Assembly: GCA_002305115.1 (NCBI GenBank)
Contig: DBQF01000003.1
Location: 65,338-129,337, forward strand
Direction: 5' to 3'
DNA from: a candidate division WWE3 bacterium UBA1401
GTDB lineage: Bacteria > Patescibacteriota > WWE3 > UBA101185 > UBA10185
DNA: 64,000 nt
The position numbers and the translations under genes were made by a program. This document shows, piece after piece, positions 10,659 to 63,499 of the stretch (positions are counted from its first letter, which is position 1; each line of letters starts with the position of its first letter). Under the pieces are notes generated by a model, which worked only from the letters and a program-made list of their open reading frames with translations, was not told the origin of the DNA and did not search any database.

Positions 10659-10666
10659 CACTTAGA

Positions 10667-10690
10667 CCCGAGGCTAAAGCCTCGGGTTAA
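10667..10690 (+). repeat. Conserved hairpin element CCCGAGGCTAAAGCCTCGGGTTAA (copy 1)
   Basis: An 8-bp stem with a TAAA-centred loop and a GTTAA tail sits between convergent gene ends. Confidence 0.8.
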
Positions 10691-10709
10691 TCGTACTGCG
10701 TTTATTACC

Positions 10710-11426
10710 TTAACCGCTGGCTTTAGCCTGCGGTAAGAACATACCATCATATGCAGGGGTAACAGAAATACCGTATTCATCACCAAGACTAGCAATCTGC
10801 GCTTTAGATTCATCAATATTCTTATAAAACCATGACCCGAAGTGCGTAATTACAACATGCTTTGTTACTTCCCCAAACAACTTCACTAAATTTGGTATAC
10901 CTGTATGCCCATAAATATACCCGGAACACTTGTCCCTAAACACCCTGCCACCTTTTTTCAGGTAGCTGCCCTCGGTAAGTACCAAATCAAACTTCCCCAG
11001 ACTTTCGATAATATCCTTCTTAAGCCAAGCCACGTCTCCAGTATAAAAGATACGTTTACTACCATTTTCCACTACATAACCTTGCGATAAAACCTTCTTG
11101 CTATGCGCGGTAGGAACACTAGTAACAGTCAAACCCGCAACCTCAGTAATTCCGGTGAATTTAGTAACCGTTATACCCTTCAGTTTTGCTGACTCTGGGG
11201 CAAAAAGGGAAACACTAATTGCAGGCGGATGCTTTACAGATTCATACATAAAAAACGCATGATCGGGATGCAGATGAGTAACAAAAATTGTCTGAGGGGC
11301 ATACTTCAAAAATGAAGGCTCTCCCAAATCAAACAAAACATTATCAATTAGAACACCGCTGTGATTATGGTAGTTAGGATGGCTGGGTTTTATTTGGCCG
11401 CGGGTACCTAAGATTCTAATATCCAT
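10710..11426 (-). CDS. MBL-fold metallo-hydrolase
   Basis: It carries the HxHxDH motif (THLHPDHAF). Confidence 0.8.
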   Translation of the reverse strand: MDIRILGTRGQIKPSHPNYHNHSGVLIDNVLFDLGEPSFLKYAPQTIFVTHLHPDHAFFMYESVKHPPAISVSLFAPESAKLKGITVTKFTGITEVAGLTVTSVPTAHSKKVLSQGYVVENGSKRIFYTGDVAWLKKDIIESLGKFDLVLTEGSYLKKGGRVFRDKCSGYIYGHTGIPNLVKLFGEVTKHVVITHFGSWFYKNIDESKAQIASLGDEYGISVTPAYDGMFLPQAKASG

Positions 11427-18898: not shown

Positions 18899-18932
18899 AC
18901 CCCCTCTCCATAAAGCACTCTATGGAGAGGGG
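18899..18932. repeat. Perfect 13-bp inverted repeat (ccccctctccata / tatggagaggggg)
   Basis: I read it directly. It lies between the stop of the upstream minus-strand gene and the GT2 start. Confidence 0.7.
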
Positions 18933-19032
18933 GTACTATGTATGCGAGGCCATGAGGCTTCTACGGAGCGCAGCGTGCTTTAGCTCCGCGAGCACCGGAA
19001 AGTCTCTGGCCGAGCAAGTACACTAATTATAA

Positions 19033-23442: not shown

Positions 23443-23466
23443 CCGGAGGCTAAAGCCTCCGGTTAA
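23443..23466 (+). repeat. Conserved hairpin element (copy 2), CCGGAGGCTAAAGCCTCCGGTTAA
   Basis: I read it directly. Confidence 0.8.
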
Positions 23467-23480
23467 TCTGGTCAATAACG

Positions 23481-23503
23481 TAACCCGAGGCTTTAGCCTC
23501 GGG
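23481..23503 (-). repeat. Conserved hairpin element (copy 3, inverted), TAACCCGAGGCTTTAGCCTCGGG
   Basis: It is the reverse complement of the copy 1 consensus. Confidence 0.8.
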
Positions 23504-29611: not shown

Positions 29612-29665
29612 ATGTATTTAAGCATTATATCAACTATTAGATCTCTTACAAGCAATTTTTTACAA

Positions 29666-29680
29666 GAGGGTCGGACCTTT
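29666..29680. promoter_or_regulatory. GGTCNGACC palindrome copy 1 (gagGGTCGGACCttt)
   Basis: I read it directly. Confidence 0.6.
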
Positions 29681-29779
29681 ACTTAACCTAAGCACCACGG
29701 GAAAAACATAGAATGAAGCGGAAAAATAATCACACAATGTTGAAACTAGAAGGGTAAAAACACCGCAGCTACAGTGTTT

Positions 29780-29798
29780 GGAAAGGTCTGACCCTTCC
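29780..29798. promoter_or_regulatory. GGTCNGACC palindrome copy 2 (ggaaaGGTCTGACCcttcc)
   Basis: I read it directly. Confidence 0.6.
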
Positions 29799-29893
29799 AA
29801 ATACTTGCACTAAAGCAAAAACAGCTAACAATCATTCTAAAAATATGAAATTTTCAAGATAACGCAGCAAGAATCGGGCAACTACAATCAAAA

Positions 29894-29910
29894 GAAAGGT
29901 CTGACCCTCC
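29894..29910. promoter_or_regulatory. GGTCNGACC palindrome copy 3 (gaaaGGTCTGACCctcc)
   Basis: I read it directly. Confidence 0.6.
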
Positions 29911-51927: not shown

Positions 51928-52734
51928 GTGAGGAGTACAGCCCATATCATCAAATACACCATAATTAGTGCATTCCTGGTATTACTTTCTACATTACTAT
52001 CCTTGAACCTCGTAAATTATGTATTGGCACAGGATTATTTCACCCCACCTGCTACAGTAGTTGCAAAGATAACAGCCCTTTTACTCGGGATTGCTTATGC
52101 TAATGCTTTAACAGTAGGTGCTTGGGGTAAATGGGAACACTATGTATTCTTTCCGGGAAGTATTGCTGCTGGTGTTTATCTAGTATTAGTAAATGTTAAC
52201 CAAACACACGCAGTAAATTTTGCCGCGTTAACATTATGCATTTTGTTATACCAAACTATAAAGGCTACTGCCCTAAAAGGGCTGTTTGTCAAATTCCAGC
52301 CGCGCTTTGTTTACAAATCATCAACCAAAGGTATCTTTTTGGTGTTCTCACTATTAGCAGCCTCTACTATCTTGATTAGCCCACAAGCAGAAGCCCCGAT
52401 AGACTTGGGTCAGAAAATCGCAGAAACTACTGTTAAACAGGCCATAAATTTAACCGAAGCAGATATTTCGCTAAAAACACTCTTGCAAGATAGTATTATT
52501 GGGCTTAACATGCAGAATCAGATCAGAGACCAAGTAAATTCCTTATTACAACCCTACAGAAGTTTCTTAACCCCATTAATTGCGGTAGCAGTGTTTTCTC
52601 TAGTTCAAGCGTTAGGAGTACTGGTCTACCTGGTGTTTAGTATTACAATTAGTGCCTTTTTATGGATAATGCGCAAATCAGGAATATTAAAAGTGGAATA
52701 CCAAACTACTCAACAAGAGATTCTATCGTTCTAG
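51928..52734 (+). CDS. Polytopic membrane protein, unknown function
   Basis: It has a GTG start 6 nt after TGcTAGAAT and about 6 TM segments. Confidence 0.5.
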   Translation: MRSTAHIIKYTIISAFLVLLSTLLSLNLVNYVLAQDYFTPPATVVAKITALLLGIAYANALTVGAWGKWEHYVFFPGSIAAGVYLVLVNVNQTHAVNFAALTLCILLYQTIKATALKGLFVKFQPRFVYKSSTKGIFLVFSLLAASTILISPQAEAPIDLGQKIAETTVKQAINLTEADISLKTLLQDSIIGLNMQNQIRDQVNSLLQPYRSFLTPLIAVAVFSLVQALGVLVYLVFSITISAFLWIMRKSGILKVEYQTTQQEILSF

Positions 52735-53371
52735 CATCTTCTATCTTAAAGTCACCAATTCTAGTGCGCACTAAATGCAAAAGAACTCCCCCCACACCAA
52801 GCTTTTCACCTAAATCGTAAGCAATAGATCTTATGTAAGTACCACTGCTGCACGTTATAGTACAATCTAAAACCAGCAAATTGTGACCGGAGACGGGTTT
52901 CTCGTCAAGGGAATTCACCTGAATATTTTTAACTGTGACCTTCTTGGTGGGTAGCTTATCTAAATTCAGTTTCCCCTTACGGGAAAGTTTATACATTCGC
53001 TTGCCATCGATTTTTTTGGCAGAGTAGGGGGGAACTGTTTGCTCAATCTCACCAACAAAAAAAGGTAACGCATTTTCTACTTGTTGTTTTAGCTCAGTTA
53101 CTGACGATAGTGGATTGAATGAGAGTGAACCTTCTAGATCATAGGTGGGAGAAGTAGCACCAAAACCAATTTCCGCCCTGTATTCTTTTTCCAGTTGCAT
53201 AAAGTCTTGTTGCTTTTTTGTGTCCTGATCAGTAAGAATTATGAGTACGCCTTCAGCCAAAGGGTCTAAGGTACCGGCATGACCAACTTTTTTGGTGTGC
53301 AAGAGGTTGCGCACTTTTGCCACTACGTCAAAACTCGTCCAATCCTTGGGTTTATAAATGTTTATGATCAT
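52706..53371 (-). CDS. truB: tRNA pseudouridine(55) synthase
   Basis: It contains GHAGTLDPLAEGVL. Confidence 0.9.
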   Translation of the reverse strand: MIINIYKPKDWTSFDVVAKVRNLLHTKKVGHAGTLDPLAEGVLIILTDQDTKKQQDFMQLEKEYRAEIGFGATSPTYDLEGSLSFNPLSSVTELKQQVENALPFFVGEIEQTVPPYSAKKIDGKRMYKLSRKGKLNLDKLPTKKVTVKNIQVNSLDEKPVSGHNLLVLDCTITCSSGTYIRSIAYDLGEKLGVGGVLLHLVRTRIGDFKIEDARTIESLVE

Positions 53372-53394
53372 TAAGCCAATGATAGCATAGGATC

Positions 53395-53426
53395 GGAGGT
53401 CGGACCCGGCACCGGGTCCGACCTCC
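53395..53426. promoter_or_regulatory. Two GGTCNGACC cores forming a perfect 15-bp inverted repeat
   Basis: The sequence is ggaggtcggacccgg-ca-ccgggtccgacctcc. Confidence 0.65.
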
Positions 53427-53469
53427 CAACATTGTTAATTGTCAATAAATGCTTTACAATAGGAAAAAC

Positions 53470-55242
53470 ATGTATACAAACGAGGACTTAATAAAACTCA
53501 GGCACTCTACCGAACATGTGGCGCAAACAGCCATCAGAAAAATATTTCCTGATATTAAAAATGTGGTAGGGCCAGCAATAGAGAATGGCTTTTTCTTTGA
53601 CTTTGCAACAAGCGAAAAAATCACACCAGAGTTATTTCCAAGAATAGAAACAGAAATGCAGAAAATAATAGATGCGGATCTACCAATAACCTGCAAAGAA
53701 ATAAGCTATGAAGAAGCTAAACAACTCTTCGTGGATAATCCATACAAGCAAGAAAAAATTGAAGAAATAAAAACCTCTGCAGAACCATTTATAGTTTATG
53801 AAATTGGCACTGCGGAAAGTGAATACTACAACGTAGACTTATGTGCGGGGCCACATCTTGAGAGTACTGGCCAGATAAAGGCATTTAAACTGCTGAGCGT
53901 GGCAGGAGCTTATTACAAAGGCAGCGAAGAAAATGAAATGTTGACCAGAATTTACGGCACCGCTTTTTATTCCAAGGAAGAACTTGATAACTATTTAAGA
54001 CTTTTGGAAGAAGCAAAAGCCAGGGATCACAGAAAATTAGGCGCCGAACTAGACTTATTTGTGTTTTCGGAACTTGTAGGTCCCGGATTACCATTATTTA
54101 CCCCGAAAGGTACAGTTATAAAAGAGGAGCTACAAAAATACGTAGAAAAAATCTGCAGAACTTACGGCTTTGACAAAGTTATCACACCACATTTGGCAAA
54201 AATAGAATTATATGAGCTTTCGGGGCATGCCAAAAAATTCGCAGATGAATTATTCCATGTAACTTCCATCAAAGGCCACGAATTTGTCATGAAACCAGTA
54301 CAATGCCCGCATCAGACTCAAATTTATGCGTCTAGACCAAGATCATATAGAGAATTGCCAATAAGATACATGGAATCGGAAAAACAGTATAGGGCCGAAA
54401 AACCAGGGGAAGTAAGTGGACTTTCCAGAGTTTACGCCATTACAGTAGAAGACGGTCACTCTTTCTGCACTGTTGACCAGGTAAGGGATGAAGTTAAAGG
54501 CATGGTTAACATCATTAAAGAGTTCTACAGCGTACTGGGGTTATGGGGTAACCACTGGGTATCCTTGTCTGTAAGAGATTATAAACACCCGGAAAAATAT
54601 ATTGGTGAACCGGAGGACTGGAATGTATGTGAAAAAATGCTGCAAGAAGTTTCCGACGAAATGGGATTAGATGCCATCAGAAAAGAAGGCGAAGCGGCAC
54701 TCTACGGACCAAAACTAGATTTCATGTTTAAAGACGCATTAGGTAAAGAAATTCAAATTCCCACTGTGCAACTAGACTTTGCAACACCAAAAAGATTTGA
54801 GCTAAACTATATTGACAGTAGCGGTGAGAAACAGTACCCGGTTATGGTGCATCGCGCAATTTTAGGCTCATACGAACGCTTCATGGCACTGATTATTGAA
54901 CACTTTGCCGGGGCATTTCCCGTATGGCTGGCGCCAGTACAAGTGGAAATAATTCCCATTAGCGAAACCCAGATGGAATATGCGCAAGAAGTGAAAAAGA
55001 TTCTTCTAGCAAGTGACCTAAGGGCAGAAATTGACACTAAAGACGCCACCATGCAGTCTAAGATTAGAGATGCACAACTTTTAAAAATTCCTTATATGGT
55101 TATAGTAGGGGATAAAGAAAAGCAAAATAACACTGTAAGTGTAAGATTAAGAGACGGTACGCAGCAAAATAATGTAACTCTTGCTGAATTTGTGGATAGA
55201 ATCAACAATATCTATTTGACCAAAAGCCTAGGTTTATGGTAA
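53470..55242 (+). CDS. thrS: Threonine--tRNA ligase (no N-terminal TGS domain)
   Basis: It contains RHSTEHV, GPAIENGFFFDF, RDHRKLG and a class II core. I start at ATG 53470, downstream of TTGTTA-N17-TACAAT (the track starts at 53449). Confidence 0.92.
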   Translation: MYTNEDLIKLRHSTEHVAQTAIRKIFPDIKNVVGPAIENGFFFDFATSEKITPELFPRIETEMQKIIDADLPITCKEISYEEAKQLFVDNPYKQEKIEEIKTSAEPFIVYEIGTAESEYYNVDLCAGPHLESTGQIKAFKLLSVAGAYYKGSEENEMLTRIYGTAFYSKEELDNYLRLLEEAKARDHRKLGAELDLFVFSELVGPGLPLFTPKGTVIKEELQKYVEKICRTYGFDKVITPHLAKIELYELSGHAKKFADELFHVTSIKGHEFVMKPVQCPHQTQIYASRPRSYRELPIRYMESEKQYRAEKPGEVSGLSRVYAITVEDGHSFCTVDQVRDEVKGMVNIIKEFYSVLGLWGNHWVSLSVRDYKHPEKYIGEPEDWNVCEKMLQEVSDEMGLDAIRKEGEAALYGPKLDFMFKDALGKEIQIPTVQLDFATPKRFELNYIDSSGEKQYPVMVHRAILGSYERFMALIIEHFAGAFPVWLAPVQVEIIPISETQMEYAQEVKKILLASDLRAEIDTKDATMQSKIRDAQLLKIPYMVIVGDKEKQNNTVSVRLRDGTQQNNVTLAEFVDRINNIYLTKSLGLW

Positions 55243-55270
55243 CTTAGTTGAGTTTCGGAGGATAACAGTT

Positions 55271-55777
55271 ATACCAAAGTATTACAAAACAAATTACAGT
55301 ATAAAAGAACCACAAGTTAGGGTAATTAAAGCAAACGGGGAGAACTTAGGAGTTTTAGACACGCGACAAGCTATAAGGCTTGCAGAGAATGAAGGTAAAG
55401 ATCTGGTTTTAATCGCAGAAGAAGCAAATCCGCCGGTAGCCAAAATCTTAGAGTTTAACAAGTTTTTATACGATGAACGTAAAAAGGAATCACAGGCGAA
55501 AGCCAGATCTAAAAAGAGTGAACTGAAGGAATTAAGATTAGGCCCATCCATTGGCGAGGGTGATCTGCAGATTAGAATCAAAAGGGCAAGAGAGTTCTTG
55601 GAAGAAGGAAATACTGTAAGGTTGACGGTAGAATTACGCGGCAGAGAAAAAGCCTACCCTGAAATCGGCAGGGAGAAACTTGAGAGAATAACGCGAGAAC
55701 TTGAAGATATAGCTAAACCGGATAAAGATATTGAGCTAAAGGGCAATAGAATGATGGTAGTTTTAATAAGAAAGTAA
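55271..55777 (+). CDS. infC: Translation initiation factor IF-3, ATA start (absent from the ORF track)
   Basis: GGAGG lies 9 nt upstream. The translation reads (M)PKYYKTNYSIKEPQVRVIKANGENLGVLDTRQAIRLAENEGKDLVLIAEEANPPVAKILEFNKFLYDERKK.... Confidence 0.88.
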   Translation: MPKYYKTNYSIKEPQVRVIKANGENLGVLDTRQAIRLAENEGKDLVLIAEEANPPVAKILEFNKFLYDERKKESQAKARSKKSELKELRLGPSIGEGDLQIRIKRAREFLEEGNTVRLTVELRGREKAYPEIGREKLERITRELEDIAKPDKDIELKGNRMMVVLIRK

Positions 55778-56388: not shown

Positions 56389-56417
56389 TTAACCCGAGAC
56401 TTTAGTCTCGGGTTTTT
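56389..56417 (+). terminator. Conserved hairpin element (copy 5, inverted) acting as the rplT terminator
   Basis: The sequence is TTAACCCGAGACTTTAGTCTCGGG followed by ttttt. Confidence 0.7.
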
Positions 56418-62009: not shown

Positions 62010-62035
62010 AGAGAGATTATAGCAGATATGTTAGG

Positions 62036-62052
62036 GGAGGGTCCGACCCTCC
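62036..62052. promoter_or_regulatory. GGTCNGACC palindrome copy 6 (ggagGGTCCGACCctcc)
   Basis: It is a 17-bp palindrome lying 14 nt upstream of the minus-strand TATAAT for the PBP gene. Confidence 0.65.
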
Positions 62053-62091
62053 GGATAAAGTTTTGACTGATAGTTGCCACTAGACAAACCA

Positions 62092-62132
62092 GAAAGGTCC
62101 GACCTTCCAAAAAATTGTTATCGTGATAAAAT
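62092..62132 (+). promoter_or_regulatory. GGTCNGACC copy 7 (gaaaGGTCCGACCttcc) abutting the tyrS promoter TTCCAA-N16-TGaTAAAAT
   Basis: The -10 box at 62127-62132 lies 6 nt before ATG 62139. Confidence 0.55.
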
Positions 62133-62138
62133 CATCTT

Positions 62139-63329
62139 ATGCCAGAAATCATTACAGACGAGCAGAAAATCGACGAAATTCTCACCCGGGGAGTGCACGA
62201 GATCTTTGTTAAAGAAGAACTCAAAAAGAAACTCATGAGCGGCAAACAACTGCATCTGAAACTAGGTGTAGACGTAACAGGCCCAAACTTACACTTAGGC
62301 CACACAGTAATCCAAAGAAAAATCCGAGACTTCCAGGAGCTGGGACACAGAGTTACACTCATCATAGGTGATTTTACAACCTTAGTAGGCGACCATTCCG
62401 ATAAAGTCGATATGCGAGGAGAGATAACACAAGAACAAATAAAACATAATGAAGAACACTTTCAAGACCAATTCTTCAAAACCGTTATAAAGGATCAGGC
62501 TGAAGTTCGCCACAACTCGGAATGGCTAAGCAAACTAAGCTTTGCAGATGTAATAGAACTGGCTAAACAATTCACTGTAGCCCAAATGCTAGACAGGGAA
62601 ACTTTCCTTTTAAGATACCAAGCTAAAAAGCCAATTGGCCTAGATGAATTTCTGTATCCCCTTATGCAAGGCTACGATTCTGTGGCGCTAACTAGCGACG
62701 TGGAATTTGGCGGTACAGATCAAACCTTTAATTTACTGGCCGGCAGAAAACTCATGGAGTATTTTGGCAAACCGCCGCAAGACGCCGTTGTCATGAAACT
62801 GCTTACTGGCAGTGATGGCAGACCTATGGGTAAAAGCCTCATGAACTTTATTCCGGTATTAGATACTGCAGAAGATATGTATGGAAAGATTATGGCAATT
62901 GTAGATGAGGTGATTTTTGAGTATTTTGAACTGGTGACACGAGTACCCGTGCCGGAAATTGAGGAAATGCGGAAAGCGGTAACCGAAGGTGCCAACCCAA
63001 TGGAATTTAAGAAACGTTTAGCAAATGAAATTGTGGAATTTTACCACGGCAAAGAGGCAGCAACAGAAGCACAAGAATACTTTGAACAAACAGTACAACA
63101 AGGTATGACCCCACAAAATATTCCAGAAATAGCTTTGCCCGAAAACACCCAAACTCTTGAGGTAGCGTCACTAATTTCTAAAACGTCAAGATCTGAAACC
63201 AGAAGAGTTATTGAGCAAGGCGGGTTTAGTGTAAACAACACAAAAATAACAGATCCACAACAACTACTGGAGTTAAAGACAGGCGATATTATAAAGTTCG
63301 GTAAGCGAGAATTTGCAAAAGTAAAATGA
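62139..63329 (+). CDS. tyrS: Tyrosine--tRNA ligase
   Basis: It has the HIGH motif (NLHLGH), a KMSKS-like motif (PMGKSL) and a C-terminal S4 domain. Confidence 0.9.
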   Translation: MPEIITDEQKIDEILTRGVHEIFVKEELKKKLMSGKQLHLKLGVDVTGPNLHLGHTVIQRKIRDFQELGHRVTLIIGDFTTLVGDHSDKVDMRGEITQEQIKHNEEHFQDQFFKTVIKDQAEVRHNSEWLSKLSFADVIELAKQFTVAQMLDRETFLLRYQAKKPIGLDEFLYPLMQGYDSVALTSDVEFGGTDQTFNLLAGRKLMEYFGKPPQDAVVMKLLTGSDGRPMGKSLMNFIPVLDTAEDMYGKIMAIVDEVIFEYFELVTRVPVPEIEEMRKAVTEGANPMEFKKRLANEIVEFYHGKEAATEAQEYFEQTVQQGMTPQNIPEIALPENTQTLEVASLISKTSRSETRRVIEQGGFSVNNTKITDPQQLLELKTGDIIKFGKREFAKVK

Positions 63330-63499
63330 AACTTAAACTACCGTGGCAGAAACAATGCCCTATAACAAACAAGCTAGGCAAAGTATTTAGAAAACTGAAA
63401 AAACCCTTTAAAAAGAAAGATTTTATGCTTAAACTTTTTACTATACTGATGGCACTAGCTTTTCTGGCAAGTTCTATTTTGCCTTATATTTTGCGCTAA
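63326..63499 (+). CDS. 57-aa basic peptide with a C-terminal TM
   Basis: It overlaps the tyrS stop in an ATGA junction. The sequence is MKLKLPWQKQCPITNKLGKVFRKLKKPFKKKDFMLKLFTILMALAFLASSILPYILR. Its stop abuts the recG ATG (TAAATG). Confidence 0.4.
   Translation: MKLKLPWQKQCPITNKLGKVFRKLKKPFKKKDFMLKLFTILMALAFLASSILPYILR

What the first reader, a model, noticed from the sequence alone, without database searches (positions are those of the whole stretch)
53395..53426. Perfect 15-bp inverted repeat built from two GGTCNGACC cores between divergent truB and thrS
The sequence ggaggtcggacccgg-ca-ccgggtccgacctcc occupies most of the 98-nt truB-thrS spacer. On the minus strand it ends 10 nt before a TATCAT box that lies 7 nt from the truB ATG. 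On the plus strand it lies 5 nt upstream of the -35 hexamer of TTGTTA-N17-TACAAT, ahead of thrS. It could be a shared operator for both genes. If transcribed, it would form a very stable hairpin or cruciform.
Basis: seen in the sequence. Interest (0 to 1): 0.6.

Follow-up and report, generated by a model that had tools for sequence, protein, structure and literature searches.

The report
REP-type palindrome doublet, not an operator
The perfect palindrome between truB and thrS is most likely two abutting, inverted copies of a short repeat scattered through this small bacterial genome, and a transposase-like gene on the same contig is bracketed by the same repeat, so it looks like a known kind of miniature mobile DNA rather than a purpose-built switch for the two genes.

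Summary

It is not unique to this spacer. Its GGTCNGACC core defines a 17-bp palindrome, GRARGGTC-N-GACCYTYC. I found 13 copies in 92.5 kb of the source contig, all of them between genes.

Walking the contig beyond the window found one 194-aa Y1/HUH transposase-like gene. Its only NCBIfam match is REP-associated tyrosine transposase. The 17-mer brackets this gene on both sides, and three more copies lie in the next spacer. Homologous genes in other Patescibacteria are bracketed by their own, different palindromes.

The finding is therefore best read as a zero-spacer REP doublet (REPIN-like) of a REP/RAYT-type system in a WWE3-like CPR bacterium.

The repeat is absent from the orthologous spacers of the nearest relatives (about 70% ThrRS identity).

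Three features are atypical for REPs:
- There is no GTAG or CGTC tag.
- The unit is only 17 bp.
- Copies sit in divergent promoter spacers rather than at gene 3' ends.

An effect on truB or thrS expression is possible, because the repeat covers the truB -35 region, but this is untested.

The parts
53395..53426 (.). Perfect 15+15 nt inverted repeat with a CA centre. It is a zero-spacer, head-to-head doublet of two 17-nt repeat units.
53394..53410 (.). Left unit, CGGAGGTCGGACCCGGC. The core is intact and 12 of 16 positions match the family consensus. The outer arm GGAGGTC resembles the family's G-rich arm.
53411..53427 (.). Right unit, ACCGGGTCCGACCTCCC, the inverted copy of the left unit.
29665..29681 (+). 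Family copy a, AGAGGGTCGGACCTTTA (14/16), in the divergent spacer between tRNA-Leu(UAA)(-) and an APH-like kinase(+).
29781..29797 (-). Family copy b, GAAAGGTCTGACCCTTC (16/16), in the same spacer, 116 nt from copy a.
29894..29910 (-). Family copy c, GAAAGGTCTGACCCTCC (16/16), in the same spacer, 113 nt from copy b.
62036..62052 (.). Family copy f, GGAGGGTCCGACCCTCC (16/16, fully symmetric), in the divergent spacer between PBP1A-pheS-pheT(-) and tyrS(+).
62092..62108 (-). Family copy d, GAAAGGTCCGACCTTCC (16/16), 56 nt from copy f. Together they form a REPIN-like pair of 17+39+17 nt.
53379..53387 (-). Extended -10 box TGCTATCAT of truB, 7 nt from the ATG, implying a leaderless mRNA. This is inferred from sequence, not mapped.
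   Evidence: The homologous TGCTATAAT-N6-ATG is seen in relative L161.
53432..53460 (+). thrS promoter-like TTGTTA-N17-TACAAT, ending 9 nt before the ATG at 53470.
52706..53371 (-). truB (221 aa).
53470..55242 (+). thrS (590 aa).

Best explanation
The inverted repeat is a REP doublet (REPIN-like). It consists of two abutting, inverted copies of a lineage-specific 17-nt repetitive extragenic palindrome, GRARGGTC-N-GACCYTYC, whose commonest oriented form is GGAGGGTCNGACCTTTC.

The family belongs to a REP/RAYT-type system. One Y1/HUH (IS200-like) transposase-like gene on the same contig is bracketed by the repeat. It lies at window-equivalent position 88,571-89,155, about 35 kb to the right of the finding.

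By analogy with characterised RAYTs, the inferred mechanism is as follows. When the DNA is single-stranded, the palindrome folds into a hairpin. The Y1 enzyme binds, cuts and rejoins that hairpin, and this is how copies and inverted doublets spread into spacers.

Shown here: the family, its confinement to spacers, the bracketed Y1 gene with HUH and Tyr motifs, and the same gene-plus-flanking-palindrome layout in other Patescibacteria.

Inferred here: hairpin recognition and mobilisation, and any effect on truB or thrS transcription. The repeat covers the -35 region of the truB extended -10 promoter and ends 5 nt upstream of the thrS -35 hexamer.
For: Family and location:
- The core occurs 7 times in the window against 0.28 expected.
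- Matches to the 17-mer consensus are all-or-none: five at 16/16, one at 14/16, and nothing above chance below that.
- Half-sites are enriched only as pairs.
- Extending along the identical source contig gave 13 family copies in 92.5 kb, all in spacers, although spacers make up only about 7% of the DNA.

The Y1 gene (L184:3366-3950(-), 194 aa):
- Pfam Y1_Tnp scores 31.5 bits, above the gathering cut-off of 23.
- Its only NCBIfam hit is 'REP-associated tyrosine transposase', E = 8e-9.
- NHWH (HUH motif) and Y-x3-N are invariant across its homologues.
- A perfect 17-mer lies 81 nt upstream of its ATG. Another copy overlaps its stop codon. Three more lie in the next spacer. This is the densest cluster seen anywhere on the contig.

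Doublets and parallels:
- Two pairs of copies have the same 56-nt centre spacing and inverted orientation, with non-conserved spacers. Published REPINs look like this (PMC3337134).
- Homologous Y1 genes in other Patescibacteria loci are bracketed by their own palindromes: TTTGGACACYSRGTGTCCAAA in L152 and L043, and ATGAATGAGG-N5-CCTCATTCAT in L035.

Lineage specificity:
- The repeat is absent from the syntenic truB-thrS and PBP1A-tyrS spacers of relatives at about 70% ThrRS identity. Their PBP1A-tyrS spacer is 41-64 nt, against 129 nt here.

Literature: RAYTs occur at a single locus, are always flanked by REPs or BIMEs, and carry HUH and Tyr motifs (PMC3479197, PMC5581495).
Against: - There is no GTAG or CGTC tag at the foot of the hairpin. 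Most catalogued REPs have one (PMC3733652).
- Away from the Y1 gene, all five spacers with copies are divergent promoter spacers and none is convergent (p = 0.002 for the first four). Published REP-rich genomes show the opposite bias (PMC3733652).
- Single 17-mers are weak hairpins: -0.6 to -6.9 kcal/mol as DNA, not significant against shuffles. The R/Y positions do not covary (6 of 12 Watson-Crick pairs, from the sequences).
- The Y1 protein scores below NCBIfam's RAYT cut-off (35.6 against 80 bits).
- Copy number and the single-copy status of the Y1 gene are known only for 92.5 kb.
- There is no direct evidence of mobility, because no close strains or insertion and excision polymorphisms were available.
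- The two units of the finding itself match the family consensus at only 12/16 outside the core.
Confidence: 0.72

Rival explanations
1. The 17-mer is an operator for a dimeric transcription factor, with GntR/FadR-type the closest match. Each 17-mer binds one dimer on double-stranded DNA. The truB-thrS doublet binds two dimers and co-regulates back-to-back promoters of translation-related genes.
For: - It is a 17-bp palindrome with the same GGTCnGACC core and central N as the E. coli LldR box AAnTGGTCnGACCAnTT, which also occurs twice per region (PMC10272880). FadR sites share the core.
- Copies lie at -31 to -57 from predicted transcription starts, in divergent promoter spacers.
- Flanking transcription units are translation-related in 6 of 8 cases, against 3 of 20 for divergent spacers without copies (Fisher p = 0.005, classified post hoc).
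- Sequence rather than pairing is conserved at the R/Y positions.
Against: - No wHTH or GntR gene lies in the window ORFs scanned with Pfam, and none appears in the precomputed Pfam lists for the genes called in the contig extension.
- There are no graded weaker sites.
- The distance to the -10 box is not fixed (18 to 45 nt).
- The T/A at position +/-5 of the GntR-type box is R/Y here.
- The motif is absent from orthologous spacers in relatives.
- This reading does not explain why the same 17-mer brackets a Y1 transposase-like gene, or why homologous genes elsewhere are bracketed by different palindromes.
Confidence: 0.12
2. The repeat is a structural DNA element: a cruciform or supercoil sink between divergent promoters. 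It extrudes under the negative supercoiling generated by the two polymerases and insulates or couples the promoters.
For: The 15-bp arms are perfect, with -18.5 kcal/mol per strand. The family is located in divergent spacers.
Against: Most family copies are 17-bp palindromes too short and too weak to extrude. This reading does not explain the link to the Y1 gene. It could be a side effect of the REP reading rather than a true rival.
Confidence: 0.05
3. The repeat is an RNA element: a transcribed hairpin acting as terminator, attenuator or stabiliser in a truB or thrS leader or in an antisense transcript.
For: The RNA fold is very stable at -32 kcal/mol. Two single copies read on the minus strand as a hairpin followed by a U-rich tail. 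Non-Watson-Crick positions can form G-U pairs on one strand.
Against: - There is no U-tract next to the finding.
- Predicted promoters lie downstream of the repeat on both sides, and both genes are leaderless or nearly so. This geometry recurs genome-wide at 27 of 82 genes and in relatives.
- No Rfam family matches.
- The genome's terminator-like hairpins belong to a different family that sits at gene 3' ends.
Confidence: 0.04
4. The repeat is a site-specific recombination site: a tyrosine-recombinase core with 13-nt arms and a 6-nt centre, or the boundary of an invertible promoter segment.
For: The repeat can be read as 13-6-13. Pairs of copies flank 39-nt to 136-nt segments in promoter spacers.
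Against: No integrase or invertase domain is present among the genes of the window or the contig extension. The Logan assembly of one run (SRR5321237) is identical to the window over their overlap, so no inverted or rearranged variant was seen.
Confidence: 0.02

Closest known systems
REP/BIME and REPIN elements with their RAYT (TnpA-REP) transposases, as in E. coli and Pseudomonas fluorescens SBW25
   Same: - A short palindromic unit repeated in extragenic space.
- Units often paired in inverted orientation at a fixed spacing, forming a long hairpin.
- One Y1/HUH transposase-like gene bracketed by the repeats.
- A lineage-specific repeat sequence.
- Long perfect palindromes arising as by-products (PMC3337134, PMC3479197, PMC5581495).
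   Different: - The unit is only 17 nt.
- There is no GTAG or CGTC tag at the hairpin foot.
- Copies sit in divergent promoter spacers instead of between unidirectional or convergent ORFs (PMC3733652).
- The host is a WWE3-like member of the Patescibacteria, and the REP survey I read (PMC3733652, 8 phyla) names no candidate phyla or Patescibacteria in the passages I saw.
- The Y1 protein is distant from curated RAYTs (35.6 bits against a cut-off of 80).
IS200/IS605 subterminal hairpins and the MITEs derived from them (PATEs)
   Same: A Y1/HUH enzyme of the same superfamily (Pfam PF01797) with imperfect palindromes on both sides of its gene, recognised as single-stranded hairpins.
   Different: In an IS the whole unit, gene plus ends, is what gets copied. 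Here the gene was seen once in 92.5 kb while the 17-mer occurs 13 times without it. No tnpB gene lies next to it.
GntR/FadR-subfamily operators (LldR box AAnTGGTCnGACCAnTT; FadR and PdhR boxes)
   Same: A 17-bp palindrome with the identical GGTCnGACC core and a single central N, typically two boxes per regulated region.
   Different: The flanks differ (R/Y instead of T/A at position +/-5). No cognate regulator gene was found. There are no degenerate sites. This resemblance does not explain the bracketing of a transposase-like gene.

Membership tests
REP / REPIN-RAYT system | A short palindromic unit present in many copies in one genome | tested here: met
   13 copies of GRARGGTC-N-GACCYTYC in 92.5 kb. 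Five of the six single copies in the first 73 kb match 16/16, where chance expects 0. At 17 nt the unit is shorter than the usual 20-40 nt.
REP / REPIN-RAYT system | Copies confined to extragenic space | tested here: met
   13 of 13 copies lie in spacers, and spacers make up about 7% of the DNA. One bare core inside gyrB lacks the family flanks.
REP / REPIN-RAYT system | A Y1/HUH transposase gene (RAYT) flanked by the repeats | tested here: met
   For L184:3366-3950(-), Pfam Y1_Tnp scores above the gathering cut-off. RAYT is the only NCBIfam hit but scores below its cut-off. HUH and Y-x3-N motifs are present. One 17-mer lies 81 nt upstream and another overlaps the stop codon.
REP / REPIN-RAYT system | RAYT present as a single copy per genome | tested here: inconclusive
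   One copy in 92.5 kb. The rest of the genome could not be reached.
REP / REPIN-RAYT system | Units paired in inverted orientation at a conserved spacing, with a less conserved spacer (REPIN or dimers) | tested here: met
   Pairs 62044/62100 and 87641/87697 both have 56-nt centre spacing and inverted orientation, and their spacers are not significantly similar (z = 1.1). The finding itself is a zero-spacer inverted pair. Only three pairs were seen.
REP / REPIN-RAYT system | A GTAG or CGTC tetranucleotide tag at the foot of the hairpin | tested here: not met
   The flanks of all copies, once oriented, show no tag at the foot. A TGTAG or TCTAG box lies 7 nt from the 17-mer (GTAG itself 8 nt) in three copies only.
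REP / REPIN-RAYT system | Preferred location downstream of genes, between unidirectional or convergent ORFs | tested here: not met
   5 divergent spacers, the 2 co-directional spacers flanking the Y1 gene, and 0 convergent spacers. This is the opposite of the published bias (PMC3733652).
REP / REPIN-RAYT system | Mobility: insertion or excision polymorphism, or differences between close strains | not testable with these tools
   The nearest relatives are at about 70% ThrRS identity. They lack the repeat at syntenic spacers, which is consistent with mobility but not decisive.
REP / REPIN-RAYT system | The Y1 enzyme binds and cleaves the single-stranded repeat | not testable with these tools
   This needs biochemistry.
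GntR/FadR-type operator | A 17-bp palindrome matching TGGTCnGACCA with AT-rich outer positions | tested here: inconclusive
   Core and length match. Position +/-5 is R/Y rather than T/A, and the outer positions are G/C-rich.
GntR/FadR-type operator | A cognate wHTH regulator is encoded, often next to one of its sites | tested here: not met
   No GntR or other HTH regulator was found in the window ORFs scanned with Pfam, apart from one OmpR-type response regulator. The precomputed Pfam lists for the extension show none. The rest of the genome is unseen.
Intrinsic terminator | A G+C-rich hairpin followed by a U-tract, downstream of a gene | tested here: not met
   The scan found no terminator-like site in 53250-53550, and both neighbouring genes point away from the repeat.
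T-box or other known leader RNA | A match to an Rfam covariance model | tested here: not met
   No family matches at gathering score. Only noise appears at E up to 10. A relative's thrS leader does match T-box at E = 2e-11.

The most novel reading that the evidence does not exclude
The repeat family has been co-opted as a promoter-proximal element. In this lineage thrS has neither the unclassified leader of its nearest relatives nor the T-box-type leader seen in a more distant one. Instead, the 17-mers sit at the -35 region of back-to-back leaderless promoters for aminoacyl-tRNA synthetase, ribosomal-protein, tRNA and RNA-modification genes. Bound by the Y1 protein or another factor, they would coordinate expression of the translation apparatus.
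Probability: 0.12. Interest if true: 0.6.

Novelty: new member of a known kind. Interest (0 to 1): 0.35.

Why it matters
REP/RAYT systems have been described mainly in Proteobacteria and a few other phyla. I found no paper in the held library describing a REP family in the Candidate Phyla Radiation (Patescibacteria), but my only search on this surfaced no relevant paper among the 10 listed, so the library was not searched conclusively.

Here a genome of this reduced, tightly packed kind carries such a family. The unit is unusually short and untagged. The copies sit almost only between divergent, largely leaderless promoters, which is the opposite of the classical location.

If confirmed genome-wide, this would give a compact case for asking two questions. 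First, how do Y1 enzymes choose their targets? One possibility is single-stranded or highly supercoiled DNA between divergent promoters. Second, do such repeats get drawn into promoter function?

For annotation, the result warns against reading such palindromes in CPR genomes as gene-specific operators.

Tried and rejected
1. Transcription-factor reading. I pursued it first because of the LldR/FadR box resemblance. I annotated essentially all window ORFs with Pfam, including a permissive pass on the unknowns. No regulator appeared apart from one OmpR-type pair. I demoted this reading once the Y1 gene turned up.

2. Conservation in relatives. ThrRS-based scans of genome and metagenome collections gave nothing closer than 67% identity. 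The protein database gave relatives at 70% with conserved synteny but no repeat. Close-range footprinting was therefore impossible.

3. Structure selection. The R/Y positions show no covariation, and single copies are weak hairpins.

4. Terminator, T-box or another known RNA. All rejected.

5. TIGR stem-loop arrays. Rejected: no Nop-domain protein was found and the unit architecture is wrong.

6. Phage or mobile-element origin. Two viral-collection scans found only single matches.

7. A conserved REPIN spacer. Not significant.

8. tRNA T-arm or ThrRS operator mimicry. Considered from the sequence and dropped because the loops do not fit.

9. Look-ups that failed. Exact-protein look-ups for truB and three ORFs at the left edge of the window returned nothing, apparently because the public gene calls use different start codons. 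The contig to the left of the window was not explored.

10. Structure prediction of the Y1 protein.

Full report
**Observation.** The sequence GGAGGTCGGACCCGG-CA-CCGGGTCCGACCTCC lies at 53395-53426. It is the only perfect inverted repeat with arms of 15 nt or more in the window. It folds at -18.5 kcal/mol as single-stranded DNA (z = -5.8) and at -32 kcal/mol as RNA. The flanking genes are truB (52706-53371, minus strand) and thrS (53470-55242, plus strand) by Pfam. The truB start is fixed by alignment with relatives: MIINIYKPKDW against MILNINKPLEW and MIININKPKNW. The thrS start agrees with the 590-aa public gene call. The TTGTTA-N17-TACAAT promoter is also found by the scan. The repeat fills 32 of the 98 spacer bases.

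**The repeat belongs to a family.** GGTCNGACC occurs seven times in the window against 0.28 expected. All seven lie in three spacers:
- tRNA-Leu(-) / APH-like kinase(+), three copies
- truB(-) / thrS(+), two copies
- PBP1A-pheS-pheT(-) / tyrS(+), two copies

Aligning the copies gives a 17-bp palindrome, GRARGGTC-N-GACCYTYC. Matches are all-or-none: five at 16/16, one at 14/16, and nothing above chance below that. Half-sites are enriched only as pairs. The two units of the finding keep the core but match the flanks less well (12/16). Their outer arms, GGAGGTC, resemble the family's G-rich arm.

**Promoter context.** This genome mostly uses extended -10 boxes placed 5-8 nt before the start codon, which implies leaderless mRNAs. 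Of 82 gene starts, 27 have TAnnnT at that distance, many preceded by TGn. The same geometry is seen at orthologous genes of relatives. On this basis the repeat lies at -24 to -55 of truB, covering its -35 region. It lies at about -41 to -72 of thrS. It is therefore inside neither predicted transcript. This is an inference from sequence and has not been mapped experimentally. Across the family, the distance from a copy's centre to the -10 box varies from 18 to 45 nt.

**First hypothesis.** The core and the 17-bp length match the E. coli LldR box AAnTGGTCnGACCAnTT, which occurs twice per region. They also match FadR sites. That made a GntR-type operator attractive. Pfam annotation of essentially all window ORFs, however, found no such regulator.

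**Relatives.** The organism is a Patescibacteria (CPR) bacterium. Its nearest available relatives have about 70% ThrRS identity and include a candidate division WWE3 MAG. Synteny around truB-thrS-infC-rpmI-rplT / pheST-PBP1A / tyrS-recG is conserved in them. They have no GGTCNGACC anywhere in 15-22 kb.
- Their truB-thrS spacers are 184-468 nt and hold a promoter plus a conserved, unclassified leader.
- A more distant CPR locus, L036, has a shortened T-box leader upstream of thrS. Several others show the T-box sequence motif by eye only.
- Their PBP1A-tyrS spacers are 41-64 nt, against 129 nt here.

The repeat is thus lineage-specific and looks like added sequence.

**Extension of the contig, the decisive step.** The window lies on a contig that is also assembled in Logan (SRR5321237_4). 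That assembly is identical to the window where they overlap.
- The first 9.3 kb beyond the window contained one new perfect copy. It lies in the divergent rsmD / rpmF-nusB-acpP-rnc-rpsP-khpA-trmD spacer.
- The next 9.5 kb, a single pilus operon, contained none.
- The next 9.7 kb contained five copies.

That last stretch also holds a 194-aa gene, L184:3366-3950(-), at window-equivalent 88,571-89,155. The evidence about this gene is:
- Pfam classifies it as Y1_Tnp, the IS200-like family (31.5 bits, gathering cut-off 23).
- Its only NCBIfam hit is 'REP-associated tyrosine transposase' (E = 8e-9, 35.6 bits, below the cut-off of 80).
- It carries NHWH (the HUH motif) and YIHLN (Tyr plus Asn at +4). 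Both are invariant among its homologues.
- A perfect GAAAGGTCCGACCTTTC lies 81 nt upstream of its ATG.
- GGAGGGTCGGACCTTAT overlaps its stop codon.
- Three further copies fill the adjacent holB / pilB spacer.

A single Y1 gene bracketed by the genome's dispersed palindrome is the published hallmark of RAYT/REP systems (PMC3479197, PMC3337134, PMC5581495).

**Further support.**
- Two pairs of copies, 62044/62100 and 87641/87697, have the same 56-nt centre spacing and inverted orientation. Their spacers are not significantly similar. REPINs are described in exactly this way.
- The same literature notes that such systems generate long perfect palindromes.
- Homologues of the Y1 protein in other Patescibacteria loci are bracketed by their own, different palindromes: TTTGGACACYSRGTGTCCAAA in L152 and L043, and ATGAATGAGG-N5-CCTCATTCAT in L035.
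- An unrelated CPR genome (L051) has an abutting doublet with the same 17-nt centre spacing. It fills the hypC-hypD spacer. A single copy runs into the 3' tail of the hypF reading frame, which looks like an insertion.

**What does not fit the classical picture.**
- No GTAG or CGTC tag lies at the hairpin foot.
- The unit is short, and single copies are weak hairpins.
- The R/Y positions do not covary (6 of 12 Watson-Crick pairs).
- Away from the Y1 gene, all five spacers with copies are divergent and none is convergent. In the first 73 kb, 10 of 41 spacers of at least 40 nt are divergent, giving a hypergeometric p of 0.002. REPs elsewhere favour unidirectional and convergent spacers (PMC3733652).
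- This genome's 3'-end hairpins belong to a different family.
- The flanking genes are enriched for translation functions (6 of 8 against 3 of 20, p = 0.005). That classification was made post hoc.

Two explanations for the location bias are possible, and I could not separate them. One is a preference of a single-strand-specific enzyme for the strongly negatively supercoiled DNA between divergent promoters. The other is that untranscribed spacers are the only tolerated sites in a compact, leaderless genome. Co-option into promoter function is also not excluded.

**Verdict.** The 'shared operator' interpretation is only partly supported: the position relative to both promoters and the hairpin potential are right, but a dedicated regulatory site is not the best reading. 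The finding is most likely a zero-spacer REP doublet of a REP/RAYT-type system, a known kind of element in a new host lineage and with an unusual distribution.

Confidence is about 0.7. It is limited for four reasons:
- Only 92.5 kb of the genome could be reached.
- The Y1 protein is a distant member of its family.
- No evidence of mobility was available.
- No transcription start sites have been mapped.

Noticed in passing
window 10666-10734, 23443-23503, 56391-56414: A second hairpin family, roughly CCSGAGRCTWWAGYCTCSGG, often as two inverted copies. It occurs only between convergent genes or at gene 3' ends. It looks terminator-like but has no long T-tract, and its distribution is complementary to that of the GGTCNGACC family.
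   Followed up: partly
window, genome-wide (for example 62124-62141, 62010-62024, 53371-53387): Leaderless architecture. 27 of 82 gene starts have TAnnnT, often preceded by TGn, 5-8 nt upstream of the start codon. The same geometry is seen at orthologous genes of WWE3-like relatives.
   Followed up: partly
window 55244-55777: infC is intact as an open frame from about 55244, but has no ATG, GTG or TTG start for its N-terminal domain. Mechanical ORF calling and the public gene call give only 59 aa. This probably reflects the non-canonical IF3 start codon.
   Followed up: partly
L161:9700-10003, L162:4775-4956, L163:2975-3149: The WWE3-like relatives share an unannotated thrS leader. It has a conserved hairpin, ACAACCCCYTAGGGGG, and a second hairpin just before the start codon that keeps its pairing through compensatory changes. 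No Rfam family matches. It may be an undescribed thrS regulatory leader.
   Followed up: partly
L036:9804-9939: A shortened T-box leader upstream of thrS in a CPR genome. It scores 54 bits (E = 2e-11), below Rfam's gathering score of 93, because most of Stem I is missing. Several other CPR loci show the GGGTGGAACCGCG motif by eye.
   Followed up: partly
L051:18641-18675 and 18911-18933 (same contig as L137): In bacterium CG2_30_37_16 the palindrome TTGTTAGGGTCNGACCCTTGCAA occurs once at the hypF/hypC junction, inside the tail of the hypF reading frame. It also occurs as an abutting doublet that fills the hypC-hypD spacer, with the same 17-nt centre spacing as the finding.
   Followed up: partly
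L152:10158-10897, L043:18890-18925, L035:7650-9150: Homologues of the Y1 transposase-like protein in other Patescibacteria are bracketed by their own palindromes: TTTGGACACYSRGTGTCCAAA and ATGAATGAGG-N5-CCTCATTCAT. In L152 two copies lie inside the homologous reading frame, which suggests a disrupted gene.
   Followed up: partly
window 29766-29774, 29879-29887, 62077-62085: Three family copies (centres 29789, 29902, 62100) share an extra box, GCNRCTASA, 7 nt from the 17-mer. On the other strand it reads TGTAG or TCTAG. It could be a guide or cleavage motif or a degenerate -10 box, and remains unexplained.
   Followed up: partly
window 52706-53371: The public gene call for truB is 205 aa. Alignment with relatives supports the ATG at 53371 (221 aa). 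Several exact-protein look-ups failed, apparently because of such differences in the called start.
   Followed up: yes
window 63326-63499: A small, very basic protein (57 aa) with a C-terminal hydrophobic anchor overlaps the end of tyrS. Counterparts of 66-106 aa sit at the same place in two relatives (L161, L162); none is called in L163. It has no Pfam family.
   Followed up: no
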